Assembly (NCBI GenBank): GCA_012270555.1
Contig: JAAXIC010000048.1
Location: 52,686 to 116,685 of the forward strand
Origin: Chloroflexota bacterium
GTDB lineage: Bacteria; Chloroflexota; UBA11872; VXOZ01
Length of the DNA stretch: 64,000 nucleotides
Reading direction: 5' to 3'
The position numbers were made by a program, and so were the translations under genes. The notes under the pieces are model-generated. The model had not been told where the DNA came from. It did no database searches and saw only the letters and a list, made by a program, of their open reading frames with translations. Below, in pieces: positions 27,840 through 64,000 of the stretch. Each line of letters opens with the position of its first letter. Position 1 is the stretch's first letter.

Positions 27840-27851
27840 AGGTTGATTTTC

Positions 27852-29185: not shown

Positions 29186-29203
29186 AGCTGGCCTGATTCA
29201 AGA

Positions 29204-31650: not shown

Positions 31651-31677
31651 CTGACAGCGGCCCTCTTGCCACGTCTC

Positions 31678-31830
31678 TGGTGGCGCAGACTAGCAACCTG
31701 CGAACCGAGACCTGCCATTGCTCCGGTAGCGCAGGTTTGCAATCTGCGAGTCAAGCCCTGCCATCGCTCCCGGTTGCGCAGACATGCAACCTGCGGAGAA
31801 GCACCCTCACCCCCGTATCAAGTACGGGGC
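31678..31830. repeat. BIME-like mosaic: three family-A REPs at 46-47 bp spacing plus a family-D copy
   Basis: GTGGCGCAG at 31680, GTAGCGCAG at 31726 and GTTGCGCAG at 31773. Confidence 0.75.
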
Positions 31831-32057
31831 AGGCTCTAACTCATTCCCTTGAGATGCCTTTGCGCAACCCAATCCCCATGATGGGGGAAGGCCGGGAATT
31901 GGATGAAAAGGAATGACACTATGCTAGCTAGTAGTGTAAGCGCTCCCCTGGATTCGCGGGAATGACCGCCATGTCCATTTACAATCTTAGTTCCAATCCC
32001 GCAGAGCGAGAATTAGCAGTCGAATTGTGCTTCACGTAACTAAAGGATGGGATAGCG

Positions 32058-44226: not shown

Positions 44227-44301
44227 GGCGCGTAACCCTCTCTTTCGTGTACGTTACACTTTGCTTCAGCCGTATCTACCGGCGCTTGCGTCTTCTCACT
44301 C

Positions 44302-45654
44302 TCAGTCCGGCCCGGCCTCGCTCAACTTCGTCAGCGCCGGGATTTCCGGCGCCGGACCGACCACAAGAGCGAGCCCGTCAACGTCATAGACCCAAATATG
44401 TTCCCCTTCCGCTACCGTCTCTCCTACTGTGCGCGCCGACCACTCCTCACCGGCTACGCGCACCACGCCCTCTGGGTCTAACGCAGTGAGCGCCACACCT
44501 TCCTGCCCCACAATGCGCTTCTGCCCCCGGAACTGTTGGGGCTCCTTCTGCGACTGCGCGGCAATTCGCAAGAGAAAGACAAGGAATGCGACAGTGAGCG
44601 CAACCATGAAGCCGAGCACCCAGGGCGACACAAAGAACGGGCCGCCAAAGGGAGCCGTGAGTGGCTGGTAGAGCAACAATGTGCCCAGGACAAGCGCCAC
44701 CACACCGCCAAAGCCAAGAATGCCGAGACCCGGATTCTGGGCCTCGAACGCAATCAACGCCGCGGCAATGACCAGCAGCGCCACCCCTCCCCAATTGATG
44801 GGCAGCGTCCCAAATGCCACCAGTGCCAACACAATCGCAATGGCGCCCACGACCGCCGGCAGCACGGCGCCCGGGTTATAGAGCTCCGCGATTACGGCAT
44901 AGAGGCCGATCAAGAAGAGCAAATAGGCAGTATTGGGGTTGATGATGAACTTGAGCGCCTGTTCGGCAAAGTTGTATTCCATCTCCCGCAACGGCGCGCC
45001 GGCAACGACGAGCGTGCGCGTCCACGTGGGTGTTTGCACCTGGCGGCCGTCGAGCTTTGCGATGAGATCGGGTATGTCCCGCGCCATCAGGTCGACGACA
45101 TCCGCCTTCACCGCTTCCTCCGCAGTCATCGTTTGGCTGGAGCGGACGGCCTGTTCCGCCCACTCGGCGTTCCGCCGCCGCAGCTCTGCCAAACTGCGAA
45201 TGTAGGCCACCGCTTCGTTGGTTACTTTCGCGTCCATGTCACCCAGAATCTGCCCGCCGCCCACGGAGACCGGGTGCGCCGCGCCGATGTCGGTGCCCGG
45301 CGCCATCACCGCCACGTGCGCCGCCATCGCCAGGAAGACACCCGCGCTGGCCGCGCGTCCTCCCTGTGGGTAAACAAAGACAACCACAGGCACGGGCGAC
45401 GCCAACATGCCTTGCACCATGGCCCTCATAGAGGAGTCGAGGCCGCCGGGGGTATCGAGAAGGACGATGAGCGCTTCCGCCTGGTCCGCGCTGGCACGGT
45501 CGAGCGCACGGGCAAAAAGCCGCTCGGAGGCGGGGTCAATGGCGCCGGTGATCCTCACGGTATCTACCGTGCCTAAGCGCTCTTGCGCAAGCGCTCCCTC
45601 AAGCGAAAGAAGAGCGGCAACCAGGACGATTGCACTCAATAGCGTTCTTCGCAT
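44302..45654 (-). CDS. nfeD: NfeD-like membrane-bound serine protease (long form)
   Basis: LDTPGG, RAASAG, GTDIGAAHPV, TM region and C-terminal OB fold (GVVRVAGEEWSA). Classic partner of SPFH genes. Confidence 0.92.
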   Translation of the reverse strand: MRRTLLSAIVLVAALLSLEGALAQERLGTVDTVRITGAIDPASERLFARALDRASADQAEALIVLLDTPGGLDSSMRAMVQGMLASPVPVVVFVYPQGGRAASAGVFLAMAAHVAVMAPGTDIGAAHPVSVGGGQILGDMDAKVTNEAVAYIRSLAELRRRNAEWAEQAVRSSQTMTAEEAVKADVVDLMARDIPDLIAKLDGRQVQTPTWTRTLVVAGAPLREMEYNFAEQALKFIINPNTAYLLFLIGLYAVIAELYNPGAVLPAVVGAIAIVLALVAFGTLPINWGGVALLVIAAALIAFEAQNPGLGILGFGGVVALVLGTLLLYQPLTAPFGGPFFVSPWVLGFMVALTVAFLVFLLRIAAQSQKEPQQFRGQKRIVGQEGVALTALDPEGVVRVAGEEWSARTVGETVAEGEHIWVYDVDGLALVVGPAPEIPALTKLSEAGPD

Positions 45655-45896
45655 CGACTTTCCTTCCATGTCTCCCTTTTCATTATACTCCTGTTTGAAA
45701 ACCTGCAATCGCATACTGTGCTTCATATCCAAGGAGTGTGAGTTCTCCGTTTGAGCTTGCTGCGAGTCTATCTATCTGTCACGATGGGAGTGAATCCAAT
45801 CTTTTAGCCCAACGTCCGCAGGCGAGAGGCCTATTTTCGCACGAGATAGACTTCTGCCTGGCGCATCCTCAACAGTATTTTCAAGAAAGATCCAAT

Positions 45897-49152: not shown

Positions 49153-50544
49153 CTAGCTCTCGATGCGGGCTTTCCATTCGTCGAGAATGGCCTGCATGTC
49201 GTGCTCGGCCGAGGCCAAGCCTTCCTGCGGCGTCAACTTGCCGGAGGTCACGTCGTCAACCAACGGGATCCGCCAGCGGCGGCGCAGTGCCTCGGCTCCA
49301 GGAATACCCACGTTTCCTACACGGTGCGGGATCATCTCGTTCTGCGTTAGCAAGAACGGGTCGTTTTCGTGGAATTCCTCCGAGTGCGTAACGTCGATGC
49401 GGATTGGAATGCGGTCGAAGCGCTTGGCAAATTTCAGATTCCATTCGGGTCGCGCACCGAATTCAATAAAGGCCCAGCCGCCGTCCGGGTTGGCCGCGCT
49501 ATTGCCAATGTGCCACGTATGCGTGCCGCCCCAGGTTGCATGCTTATCGGTCGAGCGCGGGCGTGGATACGTCATGAAATGGAAGGAGAGATCCGGCGCG
49601 TTGACACGCAGCCACTCGCCGCGCTCAGCATACGTCGCCCAGTAGTTGGCGATGCGGCCGTCATTGAAGTGGACGTTAGACCGGATGCCCTGGCCTCTGA
49701 GCTGCTGCACGTTGTCCCAACCACCCTGGAGGTCGAAGATCTTCTTTAGCCACGTGAGCGCCTCCACGGCCTCCGGGCTATTGATCGTGACCGTCCAACG
49801 GTCTTCACTGAAGCGCGAGCCACCGAGTTGCGTCAGGGGAACGATCCACTCATTGTGCCCGCCGCTGCCCCAAAACGGCGCGTAACCGGAAACTGTCAGC
49901 TTGCCGCCGGCATCCACCTTGGACGTCTTAGCGACCACCTCTTCCATCTCATCCCAGTACTGGGGTGGGTTGTCCGGATCCAGGCCCGCCTCCAGGTAGC
50001 TCTCAGTCCGCATGTACATGACACGCAAGTCAGGCGAATATGAGAATCCGTAGAGCTTGCCGTCCCAGTAATTCTCGGCGAAGAGCGATTCCCAGAATTC
50101 GCTCATGTCGACGCCGGACGCCTTGACGCGGGGCAACAGGTCGGTAGCCACTCCTGTGAGCCCCCACTCCGGCGAGAACCAGTCGCCGCCGGAAGCCACA
50201 TCCGGCGAAGAGCCCGCCGCAGCAGCGGTGATTACGGTGTTCCACAGACTGGCGGGCGTAGATCCCACGACGCGGACTTTGTTATCGTATGCCTCGCGGA
50301 AGGCATTGGATATCTCACCGCCGGTGTCTGAGCCAAAGTCGTACTTGGTGGGACTCCAGACGGTCACCACGCCTTCGACCGCGCCTGGCTCCGTCATGGC
50401 TTTGGGCTCATCCGCTGGCGCCTCCGCATCCGCTGGCGCCATCTCTGCTGCCGGCTGGACGCCACAGGCCGCCGCCAGGAGCGTGGCTGCACCAATGCCG
50501 GCTCCCGCCAGCAAACCTCGTCGCGAAACGTGCACTGTCTTCAC
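49153..50544 (-). CDS. Extracellular solute-binding protein, Tat lipoprotein (paralog A)
   Basis: SRRGLLAG...LLAAACG signal, GLDPDNPP.YWDE and WGGTHTW. Confidence 0.9.
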   Translation of the reverse strand: MKTVHVSRRGLLAGAGIGAATLLAAACGVQPAAEMAPADAEAPADEPKAMTEPGAVEGVVTVWSPTKYDFGSDTGGEISNAFREAYDNKVRVVGSTPASLWNTVITAAAAGSSPDVASGGDWFSPEWGLTGVATDLLPRVKASGVDMSEFWESLFAENYWDGKLYGFSYSPDLRVMYMRTESYLEAGLDPDNPPQYWDEMEEVVAKTSKVDAGGKLTVSGYAPFWGSGGHNEWIVPLTQLGGSRFSEDRWTVTINSPEAVEALTWLKKIFDLQGGWDNVQQLRGQGIRSNVHFNDGRIANYWATYAERGEWLRVNAPDLSFHFMTYPRPRSTDKHATWGGTHTWHIGNSAANPDGGWAFIEFGARPEWNLKFAKRFDRIPIRIDVTHSEEFHENDPFLLTQNEMIPHRVGNVGIPGAEALRRRWRIPLVDDVTSGKLTPQEGLASAEHDMQAILDEWKARIES

Positions 50545-50592
50545 ATAAACCTCCTAAACCAAGTTGAATACTACCACCGACACAACCCTCTC

Positions 50593-51984
50593 CTAACCGT
50601 CAATGCGGGCCTTCCACTCGTCGAGGATGGCCTGCATGTCGTGCTCGGCTGCCGCCAAGCCTTCCTCCGGCGTCACCTTGCCCGAGGTCACGTCGTCGAC
50701 CAACGGGATGCGCCAGCGGCGGCGCAGGGCCTCCGCGCCGGGTATACCAACGTTGCCCACGCGGAAAGGAATCTGGGAATTTTGCAGCAACCGGAACGGA
50801 TCATTTTCGTGATACGCTTCCGAATTGGTCACGTCAATACGGATCGGTATGCGGTCGAACCGCTTGCAGAATTTCAGATTCCAATCCGGTCGCGCCATGA
50901 ACTCGATGAATCCCCAGCCTCCATCAGGGTTGGCCGCGCTATTGCCAATGTGCCACGTATGCGTGCCGCCCCAGGTTGCCGCGCGATCGGTCTCTCGCGG
51001 ACGTGGATACGGCATAAAATGGAAGGTGAGGTCGGGCGCGTTGATGTTCAGCCACTCACCGCGCTCAGAGTAAGTCGCCCAGTAATTGGCGATGCGGCCG
51101 TCATTGAAGTGTACGTTGGAGCGAATGCCCTGGCCTCTGAGTTGCTGGACATTGTCCCAGCCGCCCTGGAGGTCGAAAATCTTCTTGAGCCACTCCAGCG
51201 CCTGTACGGCTTCCGGGCTGTTGATGGTGACCGTCCAGCGGTCCTCGCTAAAGCGCGAGCCGCCGAGCTGCGTGAGGGGAATAATCCACTCGTTGTGGCC
51301 GCCGCTACCCCAGAAGGGCGCGTAGCCGGAAACCGTGAGCTTGCCGCCCGCGTCCACCTTCGAGGTCCTTGTGACCACCTCTTCCATCTCGTCCCAATAC
51401 TGTGGCGGGTTGTCCGGATCCAGGCCCGCCTCCAGGTAGCTCTCAGTCCGCATGTACATCACGCGCAAGTCGGGGGCGTAGGTAAAGCCGTAGAGCGCGC
51501 CTTCCCAGTAGTTCTCGGCAAAGAGAGATTCCCAGTACTCACTCATGTCCAGGTTGGAGGTCTTGACGCGCGGTAGGAGATCGGTAGCAACACCGGTCAG
51601 GCCCCACTCCGGCGAGAACCAGTCGCCGCCGGAGGCAACATCCGGCGAAGAGCCGGCCGCGGCCGCGGTCGTAATCGTGTTCCACAGGCTGGCCGGTGTG
51701 GAAGGCACTACACGGACGTTATTGTCGTATGCTTCGCGGAAAGCATTTGCGATCTCGCCGCCAAGATCCGTGCTGAAGTCGAATCTTGTGGGACTCCAGA
51801 CCGTCACCACGCCCTCGACTGCACCCGGCTCCGTCATGGCCTCGGGCGCTTCGGCTTCCGGCTCCGCATCCGCTGGCGCCATTTCTCCAGCCGGCTGGAC
51901 GCCACAGGCCGCCGCAAGGAGCGTAGCTGCGCCAATCCCAGCTCCCGCTAAGAAACCTCGTCGTGAAATGTGCGCTGTCTTCAC
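50593..51984 (-). CDS. Extracellular solute-binding protein, Tat lipoprotein (paralog B)
   Basis: GTG start at 51984 with GGAGG upstream; colinear with paralog A at a 1440-bp offset. Confidence 0.9.
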   Translation of the reverse strand: MKTAHISRRGFLAGAGIGAATLLAAACGVQPAGEMAPADAEPEAEAPEAMTEPGAVEGVVTVWSPTRFDFSTDLGGEIANAFREAYDNNVRVVPSTPASLWNTITTAAAAGSSPDVASGGDWFSPEWGLTGVATDLLPRVKTSNLDMSEYWESLFAENYWEGALYGFTYAPDLRVMYMRTESYLEAGLDPDNPPQYWDEMEEVVTRTSKVDAGGKLTVSGYAPFWGSGGHNEWIIPLTQLGGSRFSEDRWTVTINSPEAVQALEWLKKIFDLQGGWDNVQQLRGQGIRSNVHFNDGRIANYWATYSERGEWLNINAPDLTFHFMPYPRPRETDRAATWGGTHTWHIGNSAANPDGGWGFIEFMARPDWNLKFCKRFDRIPIRIDVTNSEAYHENDPFRLLQNSQIPFRVGNVGIPGAEALRRRWRIPLVDDVTSGKVTPEEGLAAAEHDMQAILDEWKARIDG

Positions 51985-52198
51985 TGTCCCCTCCTTGGTA
52001 TGGAGTGCGATTTGTCTTCGAGAAAACCCTACCACCCTGCACAAACATAGTCAATGACTCGGAACCATCGTATCCTGCTTAGCTGCAAACCACCTCAACT
52101 CTGCGCTCTGTCGTATGGAGATAACTGAAGGCAAGTGGGGACGTTTCGTGCTTCACATGAGGTCGCACTGAGTTGGTCGTGGTATGCACCTCACCCGA

Positions 52199-55309: not shown

Positions 55310-56641
55310 ATGACCTTTGAGTCGAAACACTCCCAACAACCAGCCGGGCTAGACCCTTTAGCGCGTGCCCATGACTTCCAGGTGCGGCAGGCAACGTTGG
55401 GGCGCATCCGGGCCGGGCACCAAGTCATCCTCGCTGAACTCAAGCCCACCCGCGCGCAGATCGACCGGGGACTGGAACTGCACTACAACAGCTTCGTGGC
55501 TGACGCACAGGGGTCGGTGCAACTAAGTTCAACCCACGGCATCGTGGGTGATCGGTTGCGGGAAGAACTGGAACCGTATCGCGAAGAGTTGTCGCGGCAA
55601 GACCTGGGCCCGGAGGAGCTTGGTCGCCGCCTGGCCGCCATCCACTTCAAACGCAAGACCTTCGAATCGGCCTTCGACACGCAGTGGCTCGCGGAGTCGC
55701 AGGCGCTCTACCGCATCGCCGGGGTTGACCTGGGCGTCTGCGATGTCGCCGGACCTGAAGAGAACTCCTTCGAAACGGCACTCGATCGCATTGCGCGCAT
55801 CAACTTTGCACACGATCAACGCGACGACATCATTCGCGTTACCAAGCTTACAGACATCGAACGGGGGATTCGCAGCGGGACGCCGAGCGAGATGTTCCAT
55901 CTGGCTGGCGTCGGCTGCTTCGCGCAAGCATCAGACCCGTTGCGAAATCTCGACTTGCTCTACGCGCTTGGTGTGCGCATGTCCCAAATGACGTACATCC
56001 AAGCAAACGGCCTCTGCAGTTCATACTTGCAGGAGAAGGACACCGGCCTGACGCCCCTTGGCAAGCAAGTAGTGCGGCGCATGAACGAACTGGGCATCAT
56101 GGTGGATTTGGCCCACAGCGGCGAGCGGTCGTCGCATGACATGATCGCGGCCTCAACCGAACCGGTGCTGCTCAGCCACACGGGGTGCCGCGCTGTCTAC
56201 GATGACTCCACGAACCGGGGGTATCTGGAAAAGGTGTTCCAGCAGCCCTATGCCCGCGGCGCAACGATGCCGACGCGACCCGTGAGCCGCAACGCGGACG
56301 ATGCCATGCTCAAGGCCGTGGCCGCGAAAGGCGGGCTGGTGGCGATTTACTCGATCGACTACGTGCTCGGCACCGGGCCGGAGTCGTTCCACACCTGGTA
56401 CCGCCATCTGGAGCACGCGATCAGTGTCGTGGGCAGCGATCACGTCGCCATCGGCACGGACCGCACCTTCTTCCCCACCTGGCAGCCCGGCGCGCTCGAC
56501 TGGACCAACTGGCCCTACTGGACCGTCGGGCTAGTCTGTAAAGGGCACTCAGACGACGAAATCCAAAAGATCATCGGCGGCAACTTCCTGCGCTACGCCC
56601 GGCAGGTGCTCGACAAACGCCCCTGGGGGACGTTCATGTAG
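55310..56641 (+). CDS. Membrane dipeptidase-like (peptidase M19, amidohydrolase fold) protein
   Basis: GLTPLGKQVVRRMNELGIMVDLAH, LLSHTG, RNADD and DHVAIGTD. Confidence 0.85.
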   Translation: MTFESKHSQQPAGLDPLARAHDFQVRQATLGRIRAGHQVILAELKPTRAQIDRGLELHYNSFVADAQGSVQLSSTHGIVGDRLREELEPYREELSRQDLGPEELGRRLAAIHFKRKTFESAFDTQWLAESQALYRIAGVDLGVCDVAGPEENSFETALDRIARINFAHDQRDDIIRVTKLTDIERGIRSGTPSEMFHLAGVGCFAQASDPLRNLDLLYALGVRMSQMTYIQANGLCSSYLQEKDTGLTPLGKQVVRRMNELGIMVDLAHSGERSSHDMIAASTEPVLLSHTGCRAVYDDSTNRGYLEKVFQQPYARGATMPTRPVSRNADDAMLKAVAAKGGLVAIYSIDYVLGTGPESFHTWYRHLEHAISVVGSDHVAIGTDRTFFPTWQPGALDWTNWPYWTVGLVCKGHSDDEIQKIIGGNFLRYARQVLDKRPWGTFM

Positions 56642-56733
56642 TTTCGCCATTGGCACGGGCTTGCCTGTGCATGAGATAATAGACTTACAGTTGACATCAA
56701 TTTGAAGATTTAGACTATTCAACAGGCAATGGC

Positions 56734-57255
56734 ATGCCAGACGTTTTATTCCTTGTTAAGGCGCGCGGTGGAGCAACTATACCCAGAGCCGCAATGCTGG
56801 CTGCTTACCCCAATGGAACATACCGCACGGGCCAGACCGACACCGATGGCAAGTGCCAACTCGACCTTTACCGCATCGATAAGGAAATGAAGGTACTTGT
56901 CGCTGCTGAGGGGCATCTGCCATACCACACAGACCTCATTCCGGGAGAATCGAACGTTGTTCACTTGGAATTAGATCCATCAAAGGATGACAAGAGAGCG
57001 CTTCTTTTCACGCGGAGCACTGGCTACATCCCAGGCATTGAGGGACGCCTCAATCCCCACAAGGATGGCTATGTGTACGCCGAAAACATCGCCATAAACG
57101 GAAGACTTGCAACCCCTGCCGCACATTTTCAGATTGGAGAATGCCTCCATCTGATCGATGTATTTGGCGTCTCAACCACAATCCGTTTCTTGGTCGTAGA
57201 GGGGCAGTTTTCGCTTATTGAATACACCGAACCCAAGGATTACGCGGGGGAATAG
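56734..57255 (+). CDS. Hypothetical protein (N-terminal carboxypeptidase-regulatory-like beta-sandwich)
   Basis: GQTDTDGKCQL and VLVAAEG pattern. AT-richer codon usage. Confidence 0.55.
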   Translation: MPDVLFLVKARGGATIPRAAMLAAYPNGTYRTGQTDTDGKCQLDLYRIDKEMKVLVAAEGHLPYHTDLIPGESNVVHLELDPSKDDKRALLFTRSTGYIPGIEGRLNPHKDGYVYAENIAINGRLATPAAHFQIGECLHLIDVFGVSTTIRFLVVEGQFSLIEYTEPKDYAGE

Positions 57256-57257
57256 GC

Positions 57258-57650
57258 ATGGCGACGGCAGAACAGCATCGAGAGATAAGCTTGCAATTCT
57301 TGGACCATGCGGAGGACGAATTACGGAAGGGTGATCTCCTTCAAGCCTCCGAGAAAGCGTGGGGAGCGGTTTCACACTTTGTGAATTCTGTTGCCCGCCA
57401 ACGGAATTGGCCATTGGGGTCGCACAGGCAATTGATCGAGAATGCCAACAGGCTGATCAACCAGGACCCAGCCAACGCAAGCCAAAGGCGGAGGTTGCTA
57501 CTTTCGATTGAGGCGCTTCATGCCAACTTCTATCACGCGCATTTGGATGAAGTCTTGGTTGGGGAGGGTATCGAGGGTGCCAAGGAACTCATCAGGGATC
57601 TGGAAGATCTCAATAGGTACACATCTGAAATGAACACAACGACCGACTAG
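57258..57650 (+). CDS. PaREP1-like (HEPN-fold) protein
   Basis: GDLLQASEKAWGA, SHR.L and LHANFYH. Confidence 0.8.
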   Translation: MATAEQHREISLQFLDHAEDELRKGDLLQASEKAWGAVSHFVNSVARQRNWPLGSHRQLIENANRLINQDPANASQRRRLLLSIEALHANFYHAHLDEVLVGEGIEGAKELIRDLEDLNRYTSEMNTTTD

Positions 57651-57826: not shown

Positions 57827-58966
57827 CTAGTATATCCCAGGAAATATCCGGTACTTCACCTTCGCCTGGTACTCCGCCCACTTTTCCGCGCCGTACTTCT
57901 TGATGCATTCCTTTTCGTCGTCACGTTGGTGCGTGATTTCGTACGTGGTCATGTAGACGAAGTACACCCACGCCCAGGGATTCGCGAAGTGGCCGAAGAG
58001 CAGGGCAACGCCGAGGGCGATGATCACCTCGCCCATATAGTTGAAGTGCCGCGCGGCGCCCCAGAATCCGTTGCACAGGATCTTGCGGTCGCCGGCCGCG
58101 ATGTATTCAGGTTCGATGAGCCCCAGGAATTTGCGGTCCGGCCAGCGCTTGAACGTGTACTTCTGCATGTTTGCGCCGCGCGAGATGCTCCAGCCGAACC
58201 AGAGCAGCGCAGCCGTGCCGCCGAGCAAAATGTACGTCCACGGTGACGAGATTTCCGGGCGCGGCAGTGCCGCCATGCCCCAGATCGGCAGAACGTACAG
58301 CCATCCCCAGATCACAAGAGCGCCCCAGATCAGCTTGAAGCCCAGCTTTTCGTGGATCAAGTCGTATGTATACAGTTGGACGCGCTCGAAGAAGAAGTAG
58401 TCCGCGATGTAGAACGTCATGAACGCCGCAAAGAGAAAAACGCCCGGGTTGGAGTCCGCGCCAAAGCGTTCGTAGTGATACGCGGCGGCGGAGAGCGCGT
58501 TGAGCGCCAGCATCGTCCCGCCGGCGACGTAGAGGTACATCTTCACGTCGAAGCGGTTGTTGAAGAACGACAACTCCTGCGCCCGCCCCAGCCAGAAGGC
58601 CGCGATGGGATTCTTTACCTCGCCGCGCGGCTGGCTGAACACCGCAATGATTGTCAGAACAAACGCAACCACTGTGCCGCCGGCCACCGCGTAGGGGGCC
58701 GACCGGTAAAACCAATCACGGGGCATGCCGGTGAGTTCCAGCGCCCACACGACCAGCGCAAGGGCAAACACCAGAATGCCGCTCAGCTTGTATGCGCGGG
58801 GTTTGCCGGTCGCCGGATCGGTGACGTAGCCGGGTACCCGCCTGCCCGGCAGGATAACCTGCGCCAGGAAGAACACGACGAAGAGCGCCAAGGGGGTGAG
58901 AAAGCCCAGCAACGCTTCCGTACCGCTAAGCGCGAAGAGGTGCTCGATTCCTAGGCGTTCAAGCAT
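57827..58966 (-). CDS. ERG4/ERG24 family sterol reductase-like membrane protein (paralog A)
   Basis: YKLSG, YDLIHEKLGFKL, RGANMQKYTFK, GFWGAARHFNYMGE and C..KYG..W..Y..KVKYRIFPGIY. Confidence 0.88.
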   Translation of the reverse strand: MLERLGIEHLFALSGTEALLGFLTPLALFVVFFLAQVILPGRRVPGYVTDPATGKPRAYKLSGILVFALALVVWALELTGMPRDWFYRSAPYAVAGGTVVAFVLTIIAVFSQPRGEVKNPIAAFWLGRAQELSFFNNRFDVKMYLYVAGGTMLALNALSAAAYHYERFGADSNPGVFLFAAFMTFYIADYFFFERVQLYTYDLIHEKLGFKLIWGALVIWGWLYVLPIWGMAALPRPEISSPWTYILLGGTAALLWFGWSISRGANMQKYTFKRWPDRKFLGLIEPEYIAAGDRKILCNGFWGAARHFNYMGEVIIALGVALLFGHFANPWAWVYFVYMTTYEITHQRDDEKECIKKYGAEKWAEYQAKVKYRIFPGIY

Positions 58967-59018
58967 GACCGCTAATCGCTTTCAATTGTGTAATCATCAT
59001 TGCTATGAGGGAAGACGC

Positions 59019-60158
59019 CTAGTAGATACCGGGAATGATGCGATACTTCACCTTTGTCTGGTACTCCGCCCACTTTTCGGGGCCGTACTTCGCTTCGCAG
59101 GCCTCTTCGTCTTCGCGTTGCCGCAGGGTGAATATAGTGACGATGAAGACAAAGTACGTCCACGCCCAGGGACTGGTGAAGTGGCCGAACGCCAAGCCGT
59201 ATGAAAAGGCGAGGATCCCTTCGCCCAAGTAATTGAAGTGGCGAGCGGGACGCCAGAAACCACTGGTCAGGATCTTACGATCGCCGGCCACGATGTGGGT
59301 CGGCTCGATAATCCCCAGAAACTTGCGGTCGGGCCAGCGCTTGAAGGTGTACTTCTGCAAATTGGCGCCGCGCGTAATCGTCCAGCCGACGAAGAACAGC
59401 GCGACGGACGCAAGCAGCCACACAATCGTCCCTGCCGTGGAAAAACCGGGATGCGGCAGCGCGGCTATGCCCCACAGCGGCAGAATATAGAGCCAGCCGT
59501 AAACCATGATGCCGCCCCAGAACATCTTGAAGCCCAGCTTTTCATGGATAATGTCGTACGTGTAGAGTTGGACCCGCTCGAAGATGAAGTAGTCCACGAC
59601 GTAATAGGTCAAGAACGCCGCAAAGAGAAACACTCCTGGGTTGAAGTCGTCGCCAAAGCGACCATAGTGGTACGCGGCGCCGGAGAGCGCGTTGAGCGAC
59701 AGCATCGTGCCGCCGACAACGTAGAAGTACATCTTGATGTCAATGCGGTTCTTGAAGAACGACAGCTCTTGGGACCGCCCCAGCCAGAAGGCCGCGATGG
59801 GATTCTTTACTTCGCCCCGAGGCTGGCCGAACACCGCGATGAGCGCGAGAATTGTGACTACCACTGAGCCGCCGGACACGGCGTAGATTGCCGAGCGGTA
59901 GAACCAGTCGCGCGGCATGCCGGTGAGTTCCAGCGCCCAGACAGCCAGTGCGATGATGTACACCAGCAGCCCGTTCAGCTTGTACTTGCGGGGCTCGCCG
60001 GTCTCTCTATCGGTAACGTACCCCTCAACCCACCGGCCCGGTAGGATGAGTTGAACCAGGAAGAACAAGACGAAGATCGCCAGCGGGGTGAGGAACCCCA
60101 GCAGCGCTTCCTGCCCGGAAAGCTCGAATAGGTGCTCGATACCAAGCCACTCAATCAT
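59019..60158 (-). CDS. ERG4/ERG24 family sterol reductase-like membrane protein (paralog B)
   Basis: YKLNG, YDIIHEKLGFKM, RGANLQKYTFK, GFWRPARHFNYLGE and CEAKYG..W..Y..KVKYRIIPGIY. Confidence 0.88.
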   Translation of the reverse strand: MIEWLGIEHLFELSGQEALLGFLTPLAIFVLFFLVQLILPGRWVEGYVTDRETGEPRKYKLNGLLVYIIALAVWALELTGMPRDWFYRSAIYAVSGGSVVVTILALIAVFGQPRGEVKNPIAAFWLGRSQELSFFKNRIDIKMYFYVVGGTMLSLNALSGAAYHYGRFGDDFNPGVFLFAAFLTYYVVDYFIFERVQLYTYDIIHEKLGFKMFWGGIMVYGWLYILPLWGIAALPHPGFSTAGTIVWLLASVALFFVGWTITRGANLQKYTFKRWPDRKFLGIIEPTHIVAGDRKILTSGFWRPARHFNYLGEGILAFSYGLAFGHFTSPWAWTYFVFIVTIFTLRQREDEEACEAKYGPEKWAEYQTKVKYRIIPGIY

Positions 60159-60385
60159 GACCGCATACCTCTCATTCCGGTGATGGAGCCACCATAGGTG
60201 TGGCAAAAGGGGAGGGTTCTTGACACACTATGCAGCAAGGGACATTACAGTGTCAATCTGCCTCCTACGGACCGCCGCTGGCGCCAGCGCGCTCGTCAAT
60301 ACCGTTTGGAGAGTGCGTTACCAAGGGGCCTCTGTCGCTGCAGTGTCTCGGGGCAGATCAACCCAGAATGTTACCCTTCAAAGGC

Positions 60386-61201
60386 TTAGCTAAGCGAGAA
60401 GATCGTATCCAAAGACTCGGCCATGATGCGCGCGCCTAGGGCCGGATTGTGGCGCATAGGACCGATCTCGACGGTTACAAAGTCGTCGTAGCCGATAGCA
60501 TCCCACGCCTGGCGCACCGCCGGCCAGTCCACCGATCCTTCCAACAGGGTCGTAAAATAGCCGCCGGGCCGTTGCACCACAAAGTCCTTGACGTGGCACT
60601 TCTTGATGCGCTTGCCGAGGATGCGAATCCACTGCTCCGGGTAGCCGTAGGCCAGAATGTTCCCCACGTCAAAGTAAGCGCCGACGTGCGGATCATTGAT
60701 CTCATCAACGAAGCGCGCGAATTCCAGCGGACTGAGCAGGAACTTATTCCACACGTTCTCCACGCCAATTGCCACCCCTAAACTGCGCGCCTTCGGTATC
60801 AGCCCCGCGATCGCATCGCGCGCCCTGTTGTAGGCATCGTCGTAGGCCGTGTGTTCGTCAACCACGCCCGGCACTATGAGCAGCGTATTTGCCCCAATTT
60901 CGTGCGCGATTTCCAGCATCCGTTCATTGATGCGCGCCGCGTTTGCGCGGACATCCGGGTCGGCGTCGGTCATGCACACCTGCCAATTCAGGCCGGTGTA
61001 GGTGCTGGGAAGCTCCAGGCCTATAGACTCCGCATGTTTGCGGATCGCCCTTAGCTCATCATTCGAGAGATTGATGTGCAACGAGCCCTCATTGGCGAAC
61101 GTCAGTTCCACACCATCGAAGCCCGCTTCCTTGGCGGTATCGAGAATCTGGTTTGGCTGCCAATCGCCTGGCAAGGCTCCCCGGTTTAGGCCCTTCTTCA
61201 T
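60386..61201 (-). CDS. Sugar phosphate isomerase/epimerase (hexulose-6-P isomerase / L-ribulose-5-P 3-epimerase-like)
   Basis: GFDGVEL, IGVENVWNKFLLSP, YFDVGN, CHVKD and VTVEI. Confidence 0.9.
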   Translation of the reverse strand: MKKGLNRGALPGDWQPNQILDTAKEAGFDGVELTFANEGSLHINLSNDELRAIRKHAESIGLELPSTYTGLNWQVCMTDADPDVRANAARINERMLEIAHEIGANTLLIVPGVVDEHTAYDDAYNRARDAIAGLIPKARSLGVAIGVENVWNKFLLSPLEFARFVDEINDPHVGAYFDVGNILAYGYPEQWIRILGKRIKKCHVKDFVVQRPGGYFTTLLEGSVDWPAVRQAWDAIGYDDFVTVEIGPMRHNPALGARIMAESLDTIFSLS

Positions 61202-61603
61202 GATGTTCTTCTACTCCTCCCTTGCTCCCTTAAACTATGGCTTCTCAATTCCAGTTGACCACTGGTAGGTGAGATTTTCCTCAACATGAAACCCGTTTTG
61301 GACGCAGAAGTCAACGAAACGGCGCCACGGCAGTCGGAAGAGAAATGTCGGGACTTTGAGGACGGACAATGCTGACGTCTCCTAAAGACCATGGATTAGC
61401 GGGTGTCGTGCCACAATCTGACTGTCCAGTCCGGCGGGAAATCAGTGCCGTACTGCGTTTTGCAGGCGTTGCAGGCAGTTGTGGAGGCATAAATCCCGCT
61501 GTAGAATAATTCTTAAGGGAACTTTGGCTCGAGCCCAGAAGACCCAAAGGGAAGAGTTGAGAATAGCCGTCTACAGCGCGCCTGCCGCGCCTAGCATCGC
61601 TTG

Positions 61604-64000
61604 ATGTTTCGTACGTTCGGGCACATCGTCGTGCCGCTTCGCATTCCTTTACTTCTCTTTTGGATCGCGCTCGCGCTCGTCCTCGGTCTCACTGCACCCT
61701 CCGTCAGTGACGTCGCTTCTTCCGATCAGACGAGCTTCCTACCGACTTCCTCTAATTCAATTGCCGCCCGCACTCTGGAAGCAGAGAAATTTGCCGCGAG
61801 CGGCAGCGCCAGCAGCGGAATCCTCATTCTCGTGCGCGAGGGTGGTCTCACCGCGGCCGACCGGGGCTTCGCGGAGAGCCTTCACAACTGGCTGCTCTCT
61901 CCCCAAGGTCCGGCCGTCGTGCAGGACGTGGTCTCCGTCTTCAGCCATCCAGAGCGGGAGAACACCCTGACCAGCCTGGACGGCGCCGCGATGCTGCTCA
62001 CGGTGAACTTCACCGTAGCGGCCTTTCAGCCGGTGATGGACGAAGCTACGGTTGCCATTCGCGAGCGCGTGCGGCAAGGCAGGCCGGACGGCCTGGATGT
62101 GCACTACACCGGCGAGACCGGATTAAGCACTGACTTGGTGGATAGCGTTGTGGAGAGCACTGACCGGACCACGATTGTCACGGTGGTGCTCGTAATCGGC
62201 TTGCTCTTCTTCATTTATCGTGCCCCTCTGGCAGTCCTCATTCCGCTCATTACGATTACGCTAGCATATCTCGTTTCACGGGGCGTCTTGGGCTATCTGG
62301 CTCAAGCGGGCTGGCAGATCTCATCCCTGCTTGATTCCTACATGGTGGTGCTGGTCTTCGGCGCCGGCACCGACTACTCGCTCTTCTTCATTTCTCGATT
62401 CCGGGAGGAGTTGGCCCGCCATTCGGCGTTTGAAGCAGCCGTGCGTTCTGTGCAGCGCATTGGCGCGGTGATTGCGGCGAGCGCCATTACGACGATGGTC
62501 GGCCTTTCAGCACTGGGCTTGGCACGCTTCGGCATCGTGCAGACAATGGGACCGGGCCTGGCGCTGGCCGTAGGCATCACGCTGCTTGCCGGCCTCACGC
62601 TCACTCCGGCCTTGCTCTCCCTCTTTGGGAATTATCTCTTCTGGCCGCGCAAGACGAGTGTTGAGAATACACAGCCCTCCACATTCTGGATCAAAGTAAG
62701 CAATCTGGTTGCCCGCCGTCCCTTCATTCCGGTGGTGCTCATTACCGCGCTCCTTGCCCTGCCGTACATCGGATTGACACAGTACCGCGAAAACCTGGCC
62801 GTGATCGCTTCTCTTCCCAAGACGACCGACTCCCGGCAAGGATTTGATGCCATCGCCAGGCACTTTCCGCAAGGTGAATACGCACCCACTACCGTGCTGA
62901 TCGAGCTCGAGGAACGAGGCGATCTATCCTCCGCACCGTACCTGCGTGCAATCGGGACGCTACAAGAGCGACTCCTAACTCTGGAATTCGTCGATCAAAC
63001 ACGCAGCATCCTCGACCCCACCGGCGGCAGGGAAGCTGCCGCCATATTCTCTGTCCCGGCGCAACTCGACCGAATTGCGGCGTCAGTTCGCGCGCCTCAA
63101 AACACCGATGGCGCATCGCCCGCGCAGCAAATCGATGAAGCCGCATCGCTAGCGGAAACGCTGAGCGCCTACGTGGCAGAATTGGCCGCCGCTTTTCCGG
63201 ATCTAGCCCAGGCAGGGGCGTACACCCAAACTCGGGAAGCACTCGTCAACCTATCAAATGCAACGGTCAACCTGCGTGCCCAAGCGCACCCCTCGCATCA
63301 GTTGCGTCAGCTTGCCGCGCAATTGCGTCAGCCCCCGCCGGTGGAGAGTGGCGCTGATCCGGCTGCCGGCTTCGCAGCAATAGGCGCGTACTTGGCGGAA
63401 CTCGCTGCAGCTTTCCCGGATGCCGCCGCAGAGCCCTCATTCGTCGAAGCCAATCGTCTCTTGGCCGGAATTCAGCAGGCAACGCAAAGCCAGCCGGCAG
63501 CGAACAGTCTCAATGACCAGCAGCGCGCGGCGCAGCTACTGCAACTGCAGACACTCAGCGGCGAATTGGCCGGGCAACTCGAACTGCTTGCCGCTTCCTT
63601 TACCGATCAGCCTGACGCGGTATTCTTCCCAACCGGCGCGTCGGCACAAGAGCCAGCGGCGAATTCCATGGCGGCGGCATTGGACGGAATCGCAGACTCG
63701 CTTACTGCGTTGCGCGACTCCTTTGCGGATTACCCGCATCCGTACTTCATCCCCAAGTCGCTGCCGGAAATGGGGGAAGCCGCAAGCGCAGTGATGCCGG
63801 TATTCTACGCGGAAGACGCAACGACACTTCGCTTTTTCGTCATCCTGAAGGGCGATCCGCTCAGACCCGCGGCGATCAATTCGATGGGCGAATTGCGGCA
63901 AACGCTTGAAGAGAATCTTGACGGGCCACTGGCTTCTGCCAGGATCTTCCTGGGTGGCGCAACAGCCGAGCTTAGCGATATCCAAAGGGTCGTGCGTCAA
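61604..64000 (+). CDS. MMPL (RND superfamily) transporter, 3' end outside the window
   Basis: Hand translation gives MFRTFGHIVV...QTSFLP...HYTGETGL...VLVFGAGTDYSLFFISRFREEL (GxxxDY motif)...TLTPALL...DSRQGFDAIARHFPQG. Absent from the ORF track because no stop codon falls inside the window. Confidence 0.92.
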   Translation, partial: MFRTFGHIVVPLRIPLLLFWIALALVLGLTAPSVSDVASSDQTSFLPTSSNSIAARTLEAEKFAASGSASSGILILVREGGLTAADRGFAESLHNWLLSPQGPAVVQDVVSVFSHPERENTLTSLDGAAMLLTVNFTVAAFQPVMDEATVAIRERVRQGRPDGLDVHYTGETGLSTDLVDSVVESTDRTTIVTVVLVIGLLFFIYRAPLAVLIPLITITLAYLVSRGVLGYLAQAGWQISSLLDSYMVVLVFGAGTDYSLFFISRFREELARHSAFEAAVRSVQRIGAVIAASAITTMVGLSALGLARFGIVQTMGPGLALAVGITLLAGLTLTPALLSLFGNYLFWPRKTSVENTQPSTFWIKVSNLVARRPFIPVVLITALLALPYIGLTQYRENLAVIASLPKTTDSRQGFDAIARHFPQGEYAPTTVLIELEERGDLSSAPYLRAIGTLQERLLTLEFVDQTRSILDPTGGREAAAIFSVPAQLDRIAASVRAPQNTDGASPAQQIDEAASLAETLSAYVAELAAAFPDLAQAGAYTQTREALVNLSNATVNLRAQAHPSHQLRQLAAQLRQPPPVESGADPAAGFAAIGAYLAELAAAFPDAAAEPSFVEANRLLAGIQQATQSQPAANSLNDQQRAAQLLQLQTLSGELAGQLELLAASFTDQPDAVFFPTGASAQEPAANSMAAALDGIADSLTALRDSFADYPHPYFIPKSLPEMGEAASAVMPVFYAEDATTLRFFVILKGDPLRPAAINSMGELRQTLEENLDGPLASARIFLGGATAELSDIQRVVRQ

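What the first reader, a model, noticed from the sequence alone, without database searches (positions are those of the whole stretch)
57827..60158. Tandem pair of eukaryote-type sterol reductases (ERG4/ERG24, DHCR7-like) in a bacterium with no sterol genes nearby
Seen in sequence: two ~380-aa multi-pass paralogs carry RGAN.QK..FK, GFW..ARHFNY.GE and C..KYG..W..Y...V.YRI.PGIY. Established knowledge: these are ERG4/ERG24 signatures. GFWG.ARHFNY resembles sterol delta7-reductase rather than delta14-reductase (GWWG..RHPNY). Bacterial members are rare and are known mainly from sterol-making methanotrophs and intracellular bacteria such as Coxiella. Also seen: the catalytic-region Asp is Glu in both, and the family HR-x-x-RD motif is altered (LRQREDE, THQRDDE), differently in each copy. 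Inference: two specialised enzymes that modify host or environmental sterols, possibly with altered cofactor or substrate preference. This would suggest a eukaryote-associated lifestyle.
Basis: partly seen in the sequence, partly recalled or inferred. Interest (0 to 1): 0.8.

Follow-up and report, generated by a model that had tools for sequence, protein, structure and literature searches.

The report
Sponge-symbiont sterol-reductase-like gene pair
Two adjacent genes in a likely sponge-associated Chloroflexota bacterium encode membrane reductases of the sterol-reductase superfamily; they belong to a tightly conserved, horizontally spread clade seen mostly in sponge and coral microbes that is neither DHCR7 nor the known C-14 reductase, and its substrate has not been tested.

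Summary
Two intact, co-oriented 379-aa paralogs (71% identical) lie at 57827-58966 and 59019-60158 on the minus strand. Both score about 128 bits on Pfam ERG4_ERG24, and the model of A has the full MaSR1 fold.

- **Not rare:** the genes belong to a discrete clade (fixed 379 aa, 67% identity or more) found in MAGs of ten or more phyla. Most look like sponge or coral symbionts, which supports a eukaryote-associated lifestyle.
- **Partly published:** Kelly et al. 2022 reported "ERG24" enrichment and doublets in sponge symbionts. Their operon-linked reductase, however, is only 31% identical to A and B.
- **Not DHCR7-like:** bootstrapped trees place the clade in an uncharacterised superclade with protist proteins. 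DHCR7 and MaSR1-type reductases fall outside it.
- **The "altered" motifs are not special to this pair:** Glu for the catalytic-region Asp and the acidic residue in HR-x-x-RD occur across the whole superclade. Only A's Arg-to-His change in the NADPH pocket is lineage-specific.

In Dadabacteria the clade gene sits beside a sterol methyltransferase, a P450, a Rieske oxygenase and an MMPL transporter. A sterol substrate is therefore likely, but which double bond is reduced is unknown. Whether this lineage has an oxidosqualene cyclase elsewhere is unresolved.

The parts
57827..58966 (-). Paralog A (379 aa): ERG4/ERG24-superfamily 10-TM reductase, 'A-type' lineage of the 379-aa clade. Carries His346 where the NADPH-pocket Arg (MaSR1 R395) normally sits.
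   Evidence: ORF. PF01222 at 128.5 bits. AF2 model pLDDT 89.9, pTM 0.89. Foldseek 4quv TM 0.78 over 379 columns. Residue map. dN/dS 0.16-0.31 among 7 orthologs.
59019..60158 (-). Paralog B (379 aa from the ATG at 60158; a TTG-extended ORF reaches 60206): same family, 'B-type' lineage, close to the clade consensus. Retains Arg346 (MaSR1 R395).
   Evidence: ORF. PF01222 at 129.1 bits. 71% identical to A. Only one departure from the >=93% clade consensus. dN/dS 0.08-0.20. The 379-aa length is conserved in nearly all clade members.
58967..59018 (-). 52-nt B-A intergenic spacer. No terminator-like site lies in it, so B and A are probably co-transcribed (inferred).
   Evidence: Sequence. The terminator scan found only within-gene, chance-level sites.
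60227..60256 (-). Promoter-like site TTGACA-18 nt-CATAGT about 70 nt upstream of B's ATG, with a GAGAGG Shine-Dalgarno-like stretch just before the ATG. Weak evidence only.
   Evidence: 10 of 12 hexamer matches, but 1 site found against 1.7 expected in shuffles. Sequence.
55310..57650 (+). Context only. Convergent downstream neighbours: M19 dipeptidase, a 173-aa hypothetical protein and a PaREP1-family protein. They are syntenic with the pair in sister genomes, and with the lone B-type copy in L039. No functional link is shown.
   Evidence: Pfam. Synteny in L001, L003-L005 and L039; L002 keeps only the M19 gene.
60386..64000 (.). Context only. Xylose-isomerase-like TIM-barrel gene (60386-61201, minus strand) upstream of B, and a divergently transcribed MMPL(+LysM) transporter gene (61604 to beyond the window end, plus strand). 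Neither is conserved upstream of the pair in sister genomes, so the pair sits at a synteny break.
   Evidence: Pfam. 1122-aa MMPL+LysM product on the source contig. No matches at 45% identity or more in L001-L005.

Best explanation
A and B are two functional, probably co-transcribed paralogs. Each encodes a 10-transmembrane, NAD(P)H-dependent carbon-carbon double-bond reductase of the ERG4/ERG24 (sterol reductase) superfamily.

They belong to a discrete clade: fixed length of 379 aa, 67% identity or more, and a QELSFFNNR loop in place of the family's NPR motif. The clade occurs in MAGs of at least ten bacterial phyla. Most of these appear to be sponge or coral symbionts, and the pattern is best explained by horizontal spread within those communities plus strong purifying selection.

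The clade is neither DHCR7 nor the C-14 reductase of the sponge-symbiont sterol operon. It lies in an uncharacterised superclade that also contains proteins from choanoflagellates, chytrids, oomycetes and algae.

The most likely function (inferred) is reduction of a sterol double bond other than delta-14. A side-chain bond such as delta-24(28) or delta-24(25) is the leading candidate, and a ring bond remains possible. The substrate would be sterols made by CSG-bearing community members or by the host. In this Chloroflexota lineage, where no cyclase was detected, the substrate is probably exogenous.

B looks like the consensus enzyme. A is a diverged but still constrained copy with Arg-to-His in the NADPH phosphate pocket, which suggests a shifted cofactor affinity or substrate.

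Shown: gene integrity, family, fold, residue conservation, clade structure, taxonomic spread, gene neighbourhoods. Inferred: sterol substrate, which bond, the source of the sterol, co-transcription.
For: **Family and fold.** PF01222 at about 128 bits. Best solved relative is MaSR1, E 1e-32. The AF2 model (pLDDT 89.9) superposes on 4quv over its full length with TM 0.78, while SRD5A and ICMT match only partially.

**Active-site integrity.** Y241, E249, D257, E261, R313, N316, Q318, K319, H357, N359, Y360, D399, C403, K406 and Y407 (MaSR1 numbering) are all kept. D363 is Glu, as it is in the CSG reductases. R395 is kept in B and in 80 of 87 clade members. Roles of these residues come from PMC4951196 and PMC12489058.

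**Selection.** dN/dS is 0.08-0.31 across 6-7 orthologs of each paralog.

**Clade.** 100% bootstrap monophyly, 99% with P0122, and 100% for the superclade that excludes DHCR7 and the MaSR1 type. In a 50%-identity library the clade collapses to one full-length representative.

**Spread and ecology.** Copies in ten or more phyla are about 70% identical. Source names point to sponge or coral. K00222 is reported enriched in sponge MAGs compared with seawater MAGs (PMC9531527).

**Sterol link.** In all ten Dadabacteria-type loci the gene lies next to some combination of SMT (PF08498), GPP34-P450 fusions, a Rieske/KshA_C oxygenase, a flavin oxidoreductase, an MMPL transporter and a LolA-like protein. 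The same P450, SMT and MMPL types flank the Nitrospirales sterol operon. The 41% relative P0129 sits in a cluster of SDRs, an SRPBCC protein, a Rieske/KshA_C oxygenase and a sulfotransferase. Eleven genomes carry both a clade gene and an OSC at separate loci.

**Not the delta-14 enzyme.** The operon has its own reductase next to CYP51. It is 31% identical to A and B and groups with MaSR1.
Against: - No member of the clade or of its superclade has been assayed, so the substrate is an inference from family and context.
- 65 of the 79 loci, including the window, have no sterol-related neighbour.
- The closest relatives outside the clade (P0122, P0129, the protist subfamily) have Phe at the predicted catalytic Tyr241. 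The superclade's chemistry may therefore differ from canonical sterol reductases.
- The canonical family signatures are not matched.
- ERG4 reference sequences could not be obtained, so the relationship to the delta-24(28) reductases is untested.
- Absence of OSC from the window lineage is not established. Chloroflexota group-2 OSCs fell below the reporting cut.
- The sponge association rests largely on MAG naming plus one published enrichment under a KEGG label that may lump two clades. Sample metadata were not checked.
- Synonymous distances cannot date the transfers.
Confidence: 0.6

Rival explanations
1. The genes are ordinary C-14 sterol reductases (ERG24/TM7SF2, KEGG K00222) serving a de novo bacterial sterol pathway encoded elsewhere in the genome. 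The pair would simply be a duplicated pathway gene.
For: Sources label relatives 'delta14-sterol reductase' or 'ergosterol biosynthesis protein'. Kelly et al. list TM7SF2/ERG24 as occurring scattered or in doublets. The best solved relative is a delta-14 reductase. Eleven genomes with a clade gene also have an OSC elsewhere.
Against: The sterol operon already has its own reductase next to CYP51. It is only 31% identical to A and B and groups with MaSR1, while the 379-aa clade sits in a different superclade with 100% bootstrap support. No clade gene lies next to CYP51 or OSC in any of 79 loci. None of the lineage's chromosomes appears among the top-ranked OSC loci of three scans.
Confidence: 0.1
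2. The genes are DHCR7-type delta-7 sterol reductases acting on host 7-dehydrosterols.
For: The GFWG.ARHFNY motif is shared with real DHCR7s. Coxiella provides a precedent for an orphan delta-7-like reductase.
Against: The motif is also in the CSG-type reductase (GFWGIGRHLNY) and in the protist subfamily consensus, so it is not diagnostic. DHCR7 gives the lowest whole-protein scores, 72-89 bits. DHCR7 is monophyletic and separate at 100% bootstrap. DHCR7 keeps GD and HR..RD, and A and B do not. Homology does not exclude delta-7 activity by convergence.
Confidence: 0.07
3. The clade reduces a non-sterol lipid, for example another isoprenoid, a polyprenol, a hopanoid or triterpenoid, or a steroid-like natural product. 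Alternatively, one copy has lost catalysis and serves as a binding or regulatory protein.
For: The whole superclade is uncharacterised. The nearest relatives lack the predicted catalytic Tyr. NCBI names the proteins only 'DUF1295 domain-containing'. Most loci lack sterol neighbours. The CSG's best database match is reported to be a sarasinoside (steroid saponin) cluster. A carries R395H, and in LBR the R583Q change at that position lowers NADPH affinity.
Against: The clade itself keeps Tyr241 and the rest of the pocket. Both copies are under purifying selection. Where a conserved context exists, it is specifically sterol-type: an SMT with the Sterol_MT_C domain, KshA_C Rieske oxygenases and a sterol-sensing-like MMPL.
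Confidence: 0.2
4. The genes are eukaryotic (sponge) contamination or an assembly artefact, not bacterial genes.
For: The family is typically eukaryotic.
Against: The pair lies between ordinary bacterial genes (accD/accA, ABC binding proteins, an M19 peptidase) with matching GC content. There are no introns. The same arrangement occurs in five chromosome-level Chloroflexota assemblies of 2.6-3.5 Mb. The exact proteins were found on five contigs read from the collection.
Confidence: 0.01

Closest known systems
MaSR1 (Methylotuvimicrobium alcaliphilum delta-14 sterol reductase, PDB 4QUV) and eukaryotic ERG24/TM7SF2/LBR
   Same: Same superfamily and the same 10-TM fold (TM 0.78 over the full length). 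The NADPH-pocket Asn359, the Arg395 equivalent (in B), Tyr241, Asp257 and the C-terminal C..KYG block are all shared.
   Different: Only 28-31% identical. Asp363 is Glu, Arg398 is acidic, His394 is lost, and the NPR loop is replaced by QELSFFNNR. The clade sits in a different, well-supported superclade. There is no CYP51 or OSC neighbour.
CSG-type 'TM7SF2/ERG24' of sponge-symbiont sterol operons (Kelly et al. 2022, PMC9531527)
   Same: Same ecological setting (sponge-symbiont MAGs of many phyla), the same pattern of cross-phylum conservation and horizontal transfer, and the same Glu at position 363. Probably counted under the same KEGG label, K00222.
   Different: Only 31% identical. The CSG type keeps HR..RD, groups with MaSR1, and lies in the order ERG24-CYP51-SQMO/OSC. 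The 379-aa clade is never in that operon.
Coxiella burnetii orphan sterol reductases CBU1158 (delta-7-like) and CBU1206/Stmp1 (delta-24-like)
   Same: Two ERG4/ERG24-family enzymes in a host-associated bacterium with no sterol genes beside them, proposed to modify host sterols. This is the best functional analogy for the window's pair.
   Different: The Coxiella genes are described as homologs of two different canonical eukaryotic subfamilies, not tandem paralogs of one clade. I could not compare their sequences here. Absence of the pathway is established for Coxiella but not for this lineage.
DHCR7 (7-dehydrocholesterol reductase)
   Same: Same superfamily; shared GFWG.ARH.NY stretch.
   Different: The most distant of the references tested (72-89 bits). 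It forms a separate monophyletic group and keeps GD and HR..RD.
Uncharacterised eukaryote-containing ERG4/ERG24 subfamily (e.g. Monosiga brevicollis A9VAA6/XP_001749698, chytrid, Aphanomyces, Polarella and Ectocarpus proteins)
   Same: Same superclade at 100% bootstrap. Shares Glu363 and the R-Q-x-[DE]-D form of signature 2, with about 35-42% identity.
   Different: The subfamily has Phe at Tyr241 and keeps the FNPR loop. The 379-aa clade has Tyr and a remodelled loop. No listed member carries a name pointing to a characterised enzyme.

Membership tests
ERG4/ERG24 sterol-reductase superfamily (Pfam PF01222) | Profile HMM score above the curated gathering threshold over most of the protein | tested here: met
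   128.5 and 129.1 bits against a cutoff of 27, covering residues 26-379.
ERG4/ERG24 sterol-reductase superfamily (Pfam PF01222) | 10-TM fold of MaSR1, with the cofactor pocket in the C-terminal half | tested here: met
   AF2 model of A, pLDDT 89.9. Foldseek 4quv E 1e-16, TM 0.78, 379 aligned columns.
ERG4/ERG24 sterol-reductase superfamily (Pfam PF01222) | NADPH-pocket residues equivalent to MaSR1 N359 and R395 (LBR N547 and R583) | tested here: inconclusive
   N359 is kept in A and B. R395 is kept in B and in 80 of 87 clade members, but it is His in A and the six other A-type sequences. Roles from PMC4951196.
ERG4/ERG24 sterol-reductase superfamily (Pfam PF01222) | Predicted catalytic Tyr241 and Asp363 (MaSR1 numbering) | tested here: inconclusive
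   The Tyr is kept in all clade members. The Asp is replaced by Glu, a conservative change that is also present in the CSG-type reductases. Roles come from modelling in PMC12489058.
ERG4/ERG24 sterol-reductase superfamily (Pfam PF01222) | The two classical family signature patterns (G..x[YH]D.x.G..LNPR and xx[HR]R..RD...C..KYG). The patterns were recalled from memory and relaxed. | tested here: not met
   0 of 13 clade sequences match either pattern, and MaSR1 matches both. The patterns are approximate, so this is a weak test.
ERG4/ERG24 sterol-reductase superfamily (Pfam PF01222) | NADPH-dependent reduction of a sterol C=C bond | not testable with these tools
   Needs expression and lipid assays.
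DHCR7 (delta-7 sterol reductase) | Groups with bona fide DHCR7 in a phylogeny and scores best against DHCR7 | tested here: not met
   DHCR7 is monophyletic at 100% and lies outside the superclade. It gives 72-89 bits, against 127-129 for MaSR1 and CSG-type.
DHCR7 (delta-7 sterol reductase) | GFWG.ARH.NY.GD followed by HR..RD...C..KYG | tested here: not met
   The first half of the motif is shared, but the pair has GE instead of GD and T-H-Q-R-D-D or L-R-Q-R-E-D instead of HR..RD.
C-14 sterol reductase (ERG24/TM7SF2/MaSR1; KEGG K00222) | Groups with MaSR1 or ERG24-type sequences | tested here: not met
   The CSG-type reductases fall nearer the MaSR1-like sequences than the clade does, and MaSR1+P0258+P0234 form a group at 79.5%. 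The 379-aa clade is in the other superclade (100%).
C-14 sterol reductase (ERG24/TM7SF2/MaSR1; KEGG K00222) | Genomic linkage to CYP51 (C-14 demethylase) and OSC, as in bacterial sterol operons | tested here: not met
   None in the window or in 79 clade loci with 8-kb flanks.
Sponge-symbiont cluster of steroid genes (CSG; Kelly et al. 2022) | Operon order ERG24-CYP51-SQMO/OSC, flanked by DFR and by SMT or FDFT1 | tested here: not met
   The window has none of these genes. The published CSG sequence was read directly.
DUF1295 (PF06966) | Best-scoring family and full-length match | tested here: not met
   Only 33.3 and 26.6 bits, restricted to residues ~207-370, far below the PF01222 score. NCBI's 'DUF1295 domain-containing' name is an under-annotation.
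Orphan host-sterol-modifying reductases of host-associated bacteria (Coxiella type) | The genome lacks squalene epoxidase and OSC | tested here: inconclusive
   No OSC or SQMO in the 64-kb window. The lineage's six contigs are absent from the top-ranked OSC loci of three scans. Those lists are truncated, and group-2 Chloroflexota OSCs fell below the cut.

The most novel reading that the evidence does not exclude
The 379-aa clade is a previously unrecognised bacterial sterol side-chain reductase (delta-24(28) or delta-24(25)) that spread horizontally among sponge symbionts. It would work with the bacterial sterol methyltransferases to saturate methylated, ethylated or propylated side chains, the reduction step that a microbial route to 24-isopropylcholesterol-type 'sponge biomarker' sterols would need. 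In lineages without a cyclase, such as the Dadabacteria and possibly this Chloroflexota lineage, it would act on host-derived sterols. The A/B pair would then be two enzymes with different cofactor or substrate ranges.
Probability: 0.2. Interest if true: 0.8.

Novelty: new variant of a known kind. Interest (0 to 1): 0.55.

Why it matters
Sponge sterols, and especially 24-isopropylcholesterol, underpin a much-debated claim for the oldest animal biomarkers. Recent work shows that sponge-symbiont bacteria carry sterol operons and methyltransferases able to build the 24-isopropyl side chain (PMC9531527, PMC10070321).

This analysis shows that the "ERG24" signal in those microbiomes is really two unrelated clades. 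One is the operon-linked C-14 reductase. The other, to which this pair belongs, is a separate and extremely conserved clade carried by ten or more phyla. In Dadabacteria it is wired to a methyltransferase, a P450, a Rieske oxygenase and a transporter.

If it proves to be a sterol reductase, it is a concrete and clonable candidate for a missing tailoring step. It would also be a marker for symbionts that modify sterols rather than make them. In addition, the work flags an uncharacterised protist subfamily that automated annotation labels as delta-14 reductase.

If it is not a sterol enzyme, KEGG-based claims of widespread sterol capacity in sponge symbionts are inflated. Either outcome can be tested with existing lysate assays.

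Tried and rejected
1. NCBIfam scan of A and B: no family.
2. Looking for a conserved neighbourhood across all 79 loci: none found beyond lineage-specific synteny. A and B are not part of a universal operon.
3. Context of outgroups P0122, P0176 and P0167: uninformative or too short.
4. Naming the 50%-identity representatives through cluster look-ups: mostly unnamed or automatic names.
5. Profile search with an 18-sequence alignment: timed out.
6. Exhaustive listing of OSC-bearing genomes: not possible. The motif scan stopped at 120 rows and the search for related loci keeps only 80 loci. The 'N stretches matched' figures count pattern matches, not genomes, so I do not quote them as genome counts.
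7. Retrieving a Dehalococcoidia CSG from the paper's supplement: the stored fasta is cut off before that entry.
8. Using dS to date the A/B split or the transfers: rejected. All copies have GC3 of about 0.7-0.97, and cross-phylum dS (0.65-1.5) overlaps the A-B value of 0.73.
9. A-type and B-type as sisters (in-lineage duplication) versus separate acquisitions: unresolved at 44.5% bootstrap (the earlier NJ tree separated them). In CAXXVD01 the B-type occupies the syntenic site alone and the A-type lies elsewhere.
10. Habitat of abundant clusters from record names: uninformative.
11. The MaSR1 Nature paper could not be opened under the PMC id I guessed. Residue roles were taken from two later open papers instead.
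12. A search for the Monosiga accession in the literature found nothing.


Full report
**1. What is there**

The minus strand carries two intact ORFs of 379 aa: A at 57827-58966 and B at 59019-60158. B's ORF can be extended to a TTG at 60206. The ATG start is preferred for two reasons: it follows a GAGAGG stretch, and 379 aa is the length of nearly all relatives.

A and B are 71% identical with no gaps. Both match Pfam ERG4_ERG24 at about 128 bits against a cutoff of 27. A weak DUF1295 hit covers only the C-terminal part. NCBIfam has no model for them.

The only correction is one spacing error in the C-terminal pattern.

The two genes are separated by 52 nt with no terminator-like site. A promoter-like TTGACA-18-CATAGT lies about 70 nt upstream of B, but one such site is no more than shuffled sequence gives. 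Co-transcription is therefore an inference.

**2. Fold and active site**

An AlphaFold2 model of A, built on a 40-sequence alignment, is confident (pLDDT 89.9, pTM 0.89). It superposes over all 379 columns on the Methylotuvimicrobium sterol reductase MaSR1 (4quv; TM 0.78, 28% identity). Steroid 5-alpha-reductases and ICMT match only partially.

Published work places MaSR1 N359 and R395 (LBR N547 and R583) in the NADPH pocket, and mutating them lowers NADPH affinity (PMC4951196). Modelling of ERG24 proposes MaSR1 Tyr241 and Asp363 as the catalytic pair and notes an invariant Asp257 (PMC12489058).

Mapping these positions gives the following:
- **Kept in A and B:** Y241, E249, D257, E261, R313, N316, Q318, K319, H357, N359, Y360, D399, C403, K406 and Y407.
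- **D363 is Glu** in all 87 clade sequences, in the related protist subfamily, and also in the operon-linked CSG reductases.
- **R398 is acidic or hydrophobic** across the clade and the protist subfamily.
- **R395** is kept in B and in 80 of 87 clade members. It is His only in the seven A-type sequences.
- **The family's NPR loop** is replaced by QELSFFNNR in this clade only.

Only R395H is special to A.

**3. Both copies are maintained**

Each paralog has intact orthologs in six other assemblies. Pairwise dN/dS is 0.16-0.31 for A-type and 0.08-0.20 for B-type. B departs from the 93% clade consensus at one position and A at three.

**4. A discrete clade spread across phyla, mostly in sponge and coral symbionts**

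A database search returned 989+ homologs. The best 120 are almost all exactly 379 aa and at least 70% identical.

In one-genome-per-species contigs, 79 distinct loci were returned. They come from Chloroflexota/Dehalococcoidia, Binatia, Nitrospirales, Bryobacterales, Thermodesulfobacteriota/Dadabacteria, Latescibacterota, Gemmatimonadota (Longimicrobiales, Palauibacter), Acidimicrobiaceae, Rhodospirillaceae and Syntrophobacterales. All are 69-93% identical to A.

The evidence for a sponge or coral origin is as follows:
- Many isolate names look like sponge or coral bins (RHO, COS, IRC, SB06xx, Spongia_Bin9, Plut).
- The jk18x and p16x names are Ircinia MAGs according to Kelly et al.'s Table S1.
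- The window's own proteins lie on a 140,972-bp contig. One copy is in ENA assembly ERZ23495086 as scaffold 'ROBB19-1_SAMN11878272_METAG', which I read as a sponge metagenome. I did not check the sample record.

In a library clustered at 50% identity the clade collapses to one full-length representative. The next full-length relatives are 48%, 41% and 36% identical.

The tree has a long stem and short internal branches that group roughly by class. Together with about 70% identity across phyla, this indicates horizontal spread plus strong constraint. Synonymous distances could not date the spread because of GC3 bias.

**5. Relation to the published sponge-symbiont sterol genes**

Kelly et al. 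2022 (PMC9531527) reported K00222 'TM7SF2/ERG24' as enriched in Ircinia symbionts, occurring 'scattered ... or in doublets'. They also described an ERG24-CYP51-LSS operon (CSG) in 115 of 537 MAGs from ten phyla, with evidence of horizontal transfer and low omega.

I translated a CSG from their supplement. Its reductase is 343 aa, keeps WHRSIRDERRC, and is only 31% identical to A and B. In family trees it falls near MaSR1.

The 'ERG24' signal in sponge microbiomes is therefore two clades, and the window's pair belongs to the non-operon one. I found no paper that makes this distinction, but the library is limited to open-access papers.

**6. Not DHCR7**

I used a recalled human DHCR7 fragment only as a probe. 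It retrieved named DHCR7 sequences from rat, mouse, Xenopus, Nematostella, chytrids, a Chlamydiia MAG and others.

These real DHCR7s do carry GFWGVARH[FLM]NY, but followed by GD and by HR..RD. The GFWG motif is also in the CSG reductase and in the protist subfamily consensus SGFWGLSRHxNYLGE, so it is not diagnostic.

BLAST scores for A are:

| Reference | Bits |
|---|---|
| P0122 | 320 |
| P0129 | 264 |
| Monosiga A9VAA6 | 192 |
| MaSR1 | 129 |
| CSG-type | 127 |
| DHCR7 | 72-89 |

A 200-replicate bootstrap NJ analysis gave:

| Grouping | Support |
|---|---|
| 379-aa clade monophyletic | 100% |
| Clade + P0122 | 99% |
| Clade + bacterial relatives + protist subfamily | 100% |
| DHCR7 monophyletic and outside | 100% |

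The protist subfamily (choanoflagellate, chytrids, Aphanomyces, Polarella, Ectocarpus and others) carries only automatic names. ERG4 references could not be obtained, so the relationship to delta-24(28) reductases remains open.

**7. Evidence for a sterol substrate**

Most neighbourhoods are lineage-specific and uninformative. The exception is the ten Dadabacteria-type loci. There the clade gene is flanked by some combination of:
- one to three GPP34-P450 fusion genes;
- a sterol methyltransferase with the Sterol_MT_C domain;
- a flavin amine-oxidase-like protein;
- a Rieske/KshA_C oxygenase;
- an MMPL transporter with a faint sterol-sensing match;
- a LolA-like protein.

Homologs of the same P450 fusion (about 62% identical), SMT and MMPL flank the Nitrospirales CSG.

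The 41% relative P0129 lies among three SDRs, an SRPBCC protein, a Rieske/KshA_C oxygenase and a sulfotransferase.

Eleven genomes have both a clade gene and a CSG-type OSC at distant loci (compare). Since those genomes already have an operon C-14 reductase, the clade enzyme should reduce a different bond. The SMT adjacency makes a side-chain bond the leading guess, but this is an inference.

**8. Does this lineage make sterols?**

The 64-kb window has no homolog of OSC, SQMO, CYP51, SMT, the P450 fusion, the Rieske oxygenase or the sterol-linked MMPL. The rest of the window encodes ordinary heterotroph functions.

Three genome-collection scans did not return any of the lineage's six contigs:
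- an alphaproteobacterial OSC probe;
- the WHGWPVxDCT motif;
- a sponge Chloroflexi OSC probe, which returned 23 Chloroflexota loci at 76% identity or more.

However, the lists are truncated. A second Chloroflexota OSC group, including the one on OZ244816.1, fell below the cut. Absence is therefore suggested but not shown. Kelly's Table S1 scores several sponge Chloroflexota lineages as lacking a CSG, but I could not place the window below phylum level.

**9. Origin of the pair**

The tandem arrangement occurs only in the window's lineage (L001-L005) and, independently, in L028. The other 73 loci have one copy.

A-type and B-type are both deep lineages within the clade. Whether they are sisters is unresolved (44.5% bootstrap).

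In the related assembly CAXXVD01 the B-type gene sits alone at the syntenic site, next to the PaREP1, 173-aa and M19 genes. The A-type gene is elsewhere.

The window has three other tandem paralog pairs at 79-88% identity, so tandem duplication is common in this genome. Upstream synteny (TIM barrel, MMPL) is not shared with the sister genomes.

**10. Verdict**

Family assignment and host association are supported. Rarity, DHCR7 affinity and the cofactor argument are not.

The pair is a lineage-specific doublet of a clade that is widespread in sponge-symbiont MAGs, already partly reported under a lumped KEGG label, and biochemically uncharacterised. The closest functional analogy is Coxiella's orphan reductase pair (PMC8787468).

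Interest is moderate. The clade is a good, testable candidate for a bacterial sterol-tailoring reductase relevant to the sponge-biomarker debate, but nothing here shows which reaction it performs.

Noticed in passing
window 28109-30575, 30673-33035, 49153-52044: Three more tandem paralog pairs besides the reductases: GFO/IDH/MocA oxidoreductases (79% identical), Zn-dependent alcohol dehydrogenases (79%) and ABC solute-binding proteins (88%). Tandem duplication looks like a habit of this genome.
   Followed up: partly
window 56734-57650: A PaREP1/PaREP8-family protein (a family named for archaea) and an adjacent 173-aa protein with no Pfam match. Both are conserved just downstream of the reductase locus in most sister genomes and in L039. 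Function unknown.
   Followed up: partly
window 61604-64000 (runs off the end): An MMPL/RND-type transporter transcribed divergently from the TIM-B-A unit. On the source contig the 1122-aa product also carries LysM domains. It is not related to the sterol-linked MMPL of Dadabacteria at E 1e-4 and is not syntenic in sister genomes.
   Followed up: partly
L033 359-7427; L043; L126 13424-15451: Fusion proteins of a GPP34/GOLPH3-like domain (a eukaryotic Golgi phosphoprotein family) with a cytochrome P450, present in one to three tandem copies next to sterol genes in Dadabacteria and Nitrospirales sponge MAGs. They are about 62% identical across the two phyla. I found no description of this architecture.
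   Followed up: partly
L080 5485-12133: A sponge-type Gammaproteobacteria contig carries a sulfotransferase, three SDRs, an SRPBCC/polyketide-cyclase-like protein, an ERG4/ERG24 reductase (41% identical to A) and a Rieske/KshA_C oxygenase, with a LolA-like gene nearby. It looks like a steroid tailoring cluster, possibly for sulfated steroids.
   Followed up: no
P0142 and relatives: A protist ERG4/ERG24 subfamily (Monosiga, chytrids, Aphanomyces, Polarella, Ectocarpus and others) has Glu363, R-Q-x-D-D and Phe at the predicted catalytic Tyr241, and carries only automatic names. It may be the Monosiga 'C7-reductase orthologue' said to be hard to reconcile with that organism's delta-7 sterols (PMC4967820). 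I could not verify this.
   Followed up: partly
L170-L243 and L287-L308: Chloroflexota CSG-type OSCs fall into two groups that are only 66-72% identical over full-length alignments, as far apart as OSCs of different phyla. This is consistent with separate acquisitions. MAG SB0665_bin_35 has two OSC loci (L287 and L302, 79% identical), which means either two operons or a mixed bin.
   Followed up: no
CSG from PMC9531527 supplement; L126 7390-10992; L149 7528-10968: The 'LSS/ERG7' gene of the sponge-symbiont operon is a squalene-monooxygenase/oxidosqualene-cyclase fusion of about 1150-1270 aa. Brown et al. also mention fused SMO/OSC homologs.
   Followed up: no
window 10871-13362, 21173-22141, 25254-30575, 60386-61201: A high density of GFO/IDH/MocA oxidoreductases (at least six) and xylose-isomerase-like TIM-barrel proteins (two), together with several ABC solute-binding proteins. 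This suggests a sugar or inositol-type catabolic repertoire.
   Followed up: no
window 43297-45732; 16878-17759: An SPFH/Band-7 gene paired with an NfeD membrane protease, a membrane-microdomain-associated pair, and an Rce1-like CAAX prenyl endopeptidase homolog. No link to the reductases was tested.
   Followed up: no
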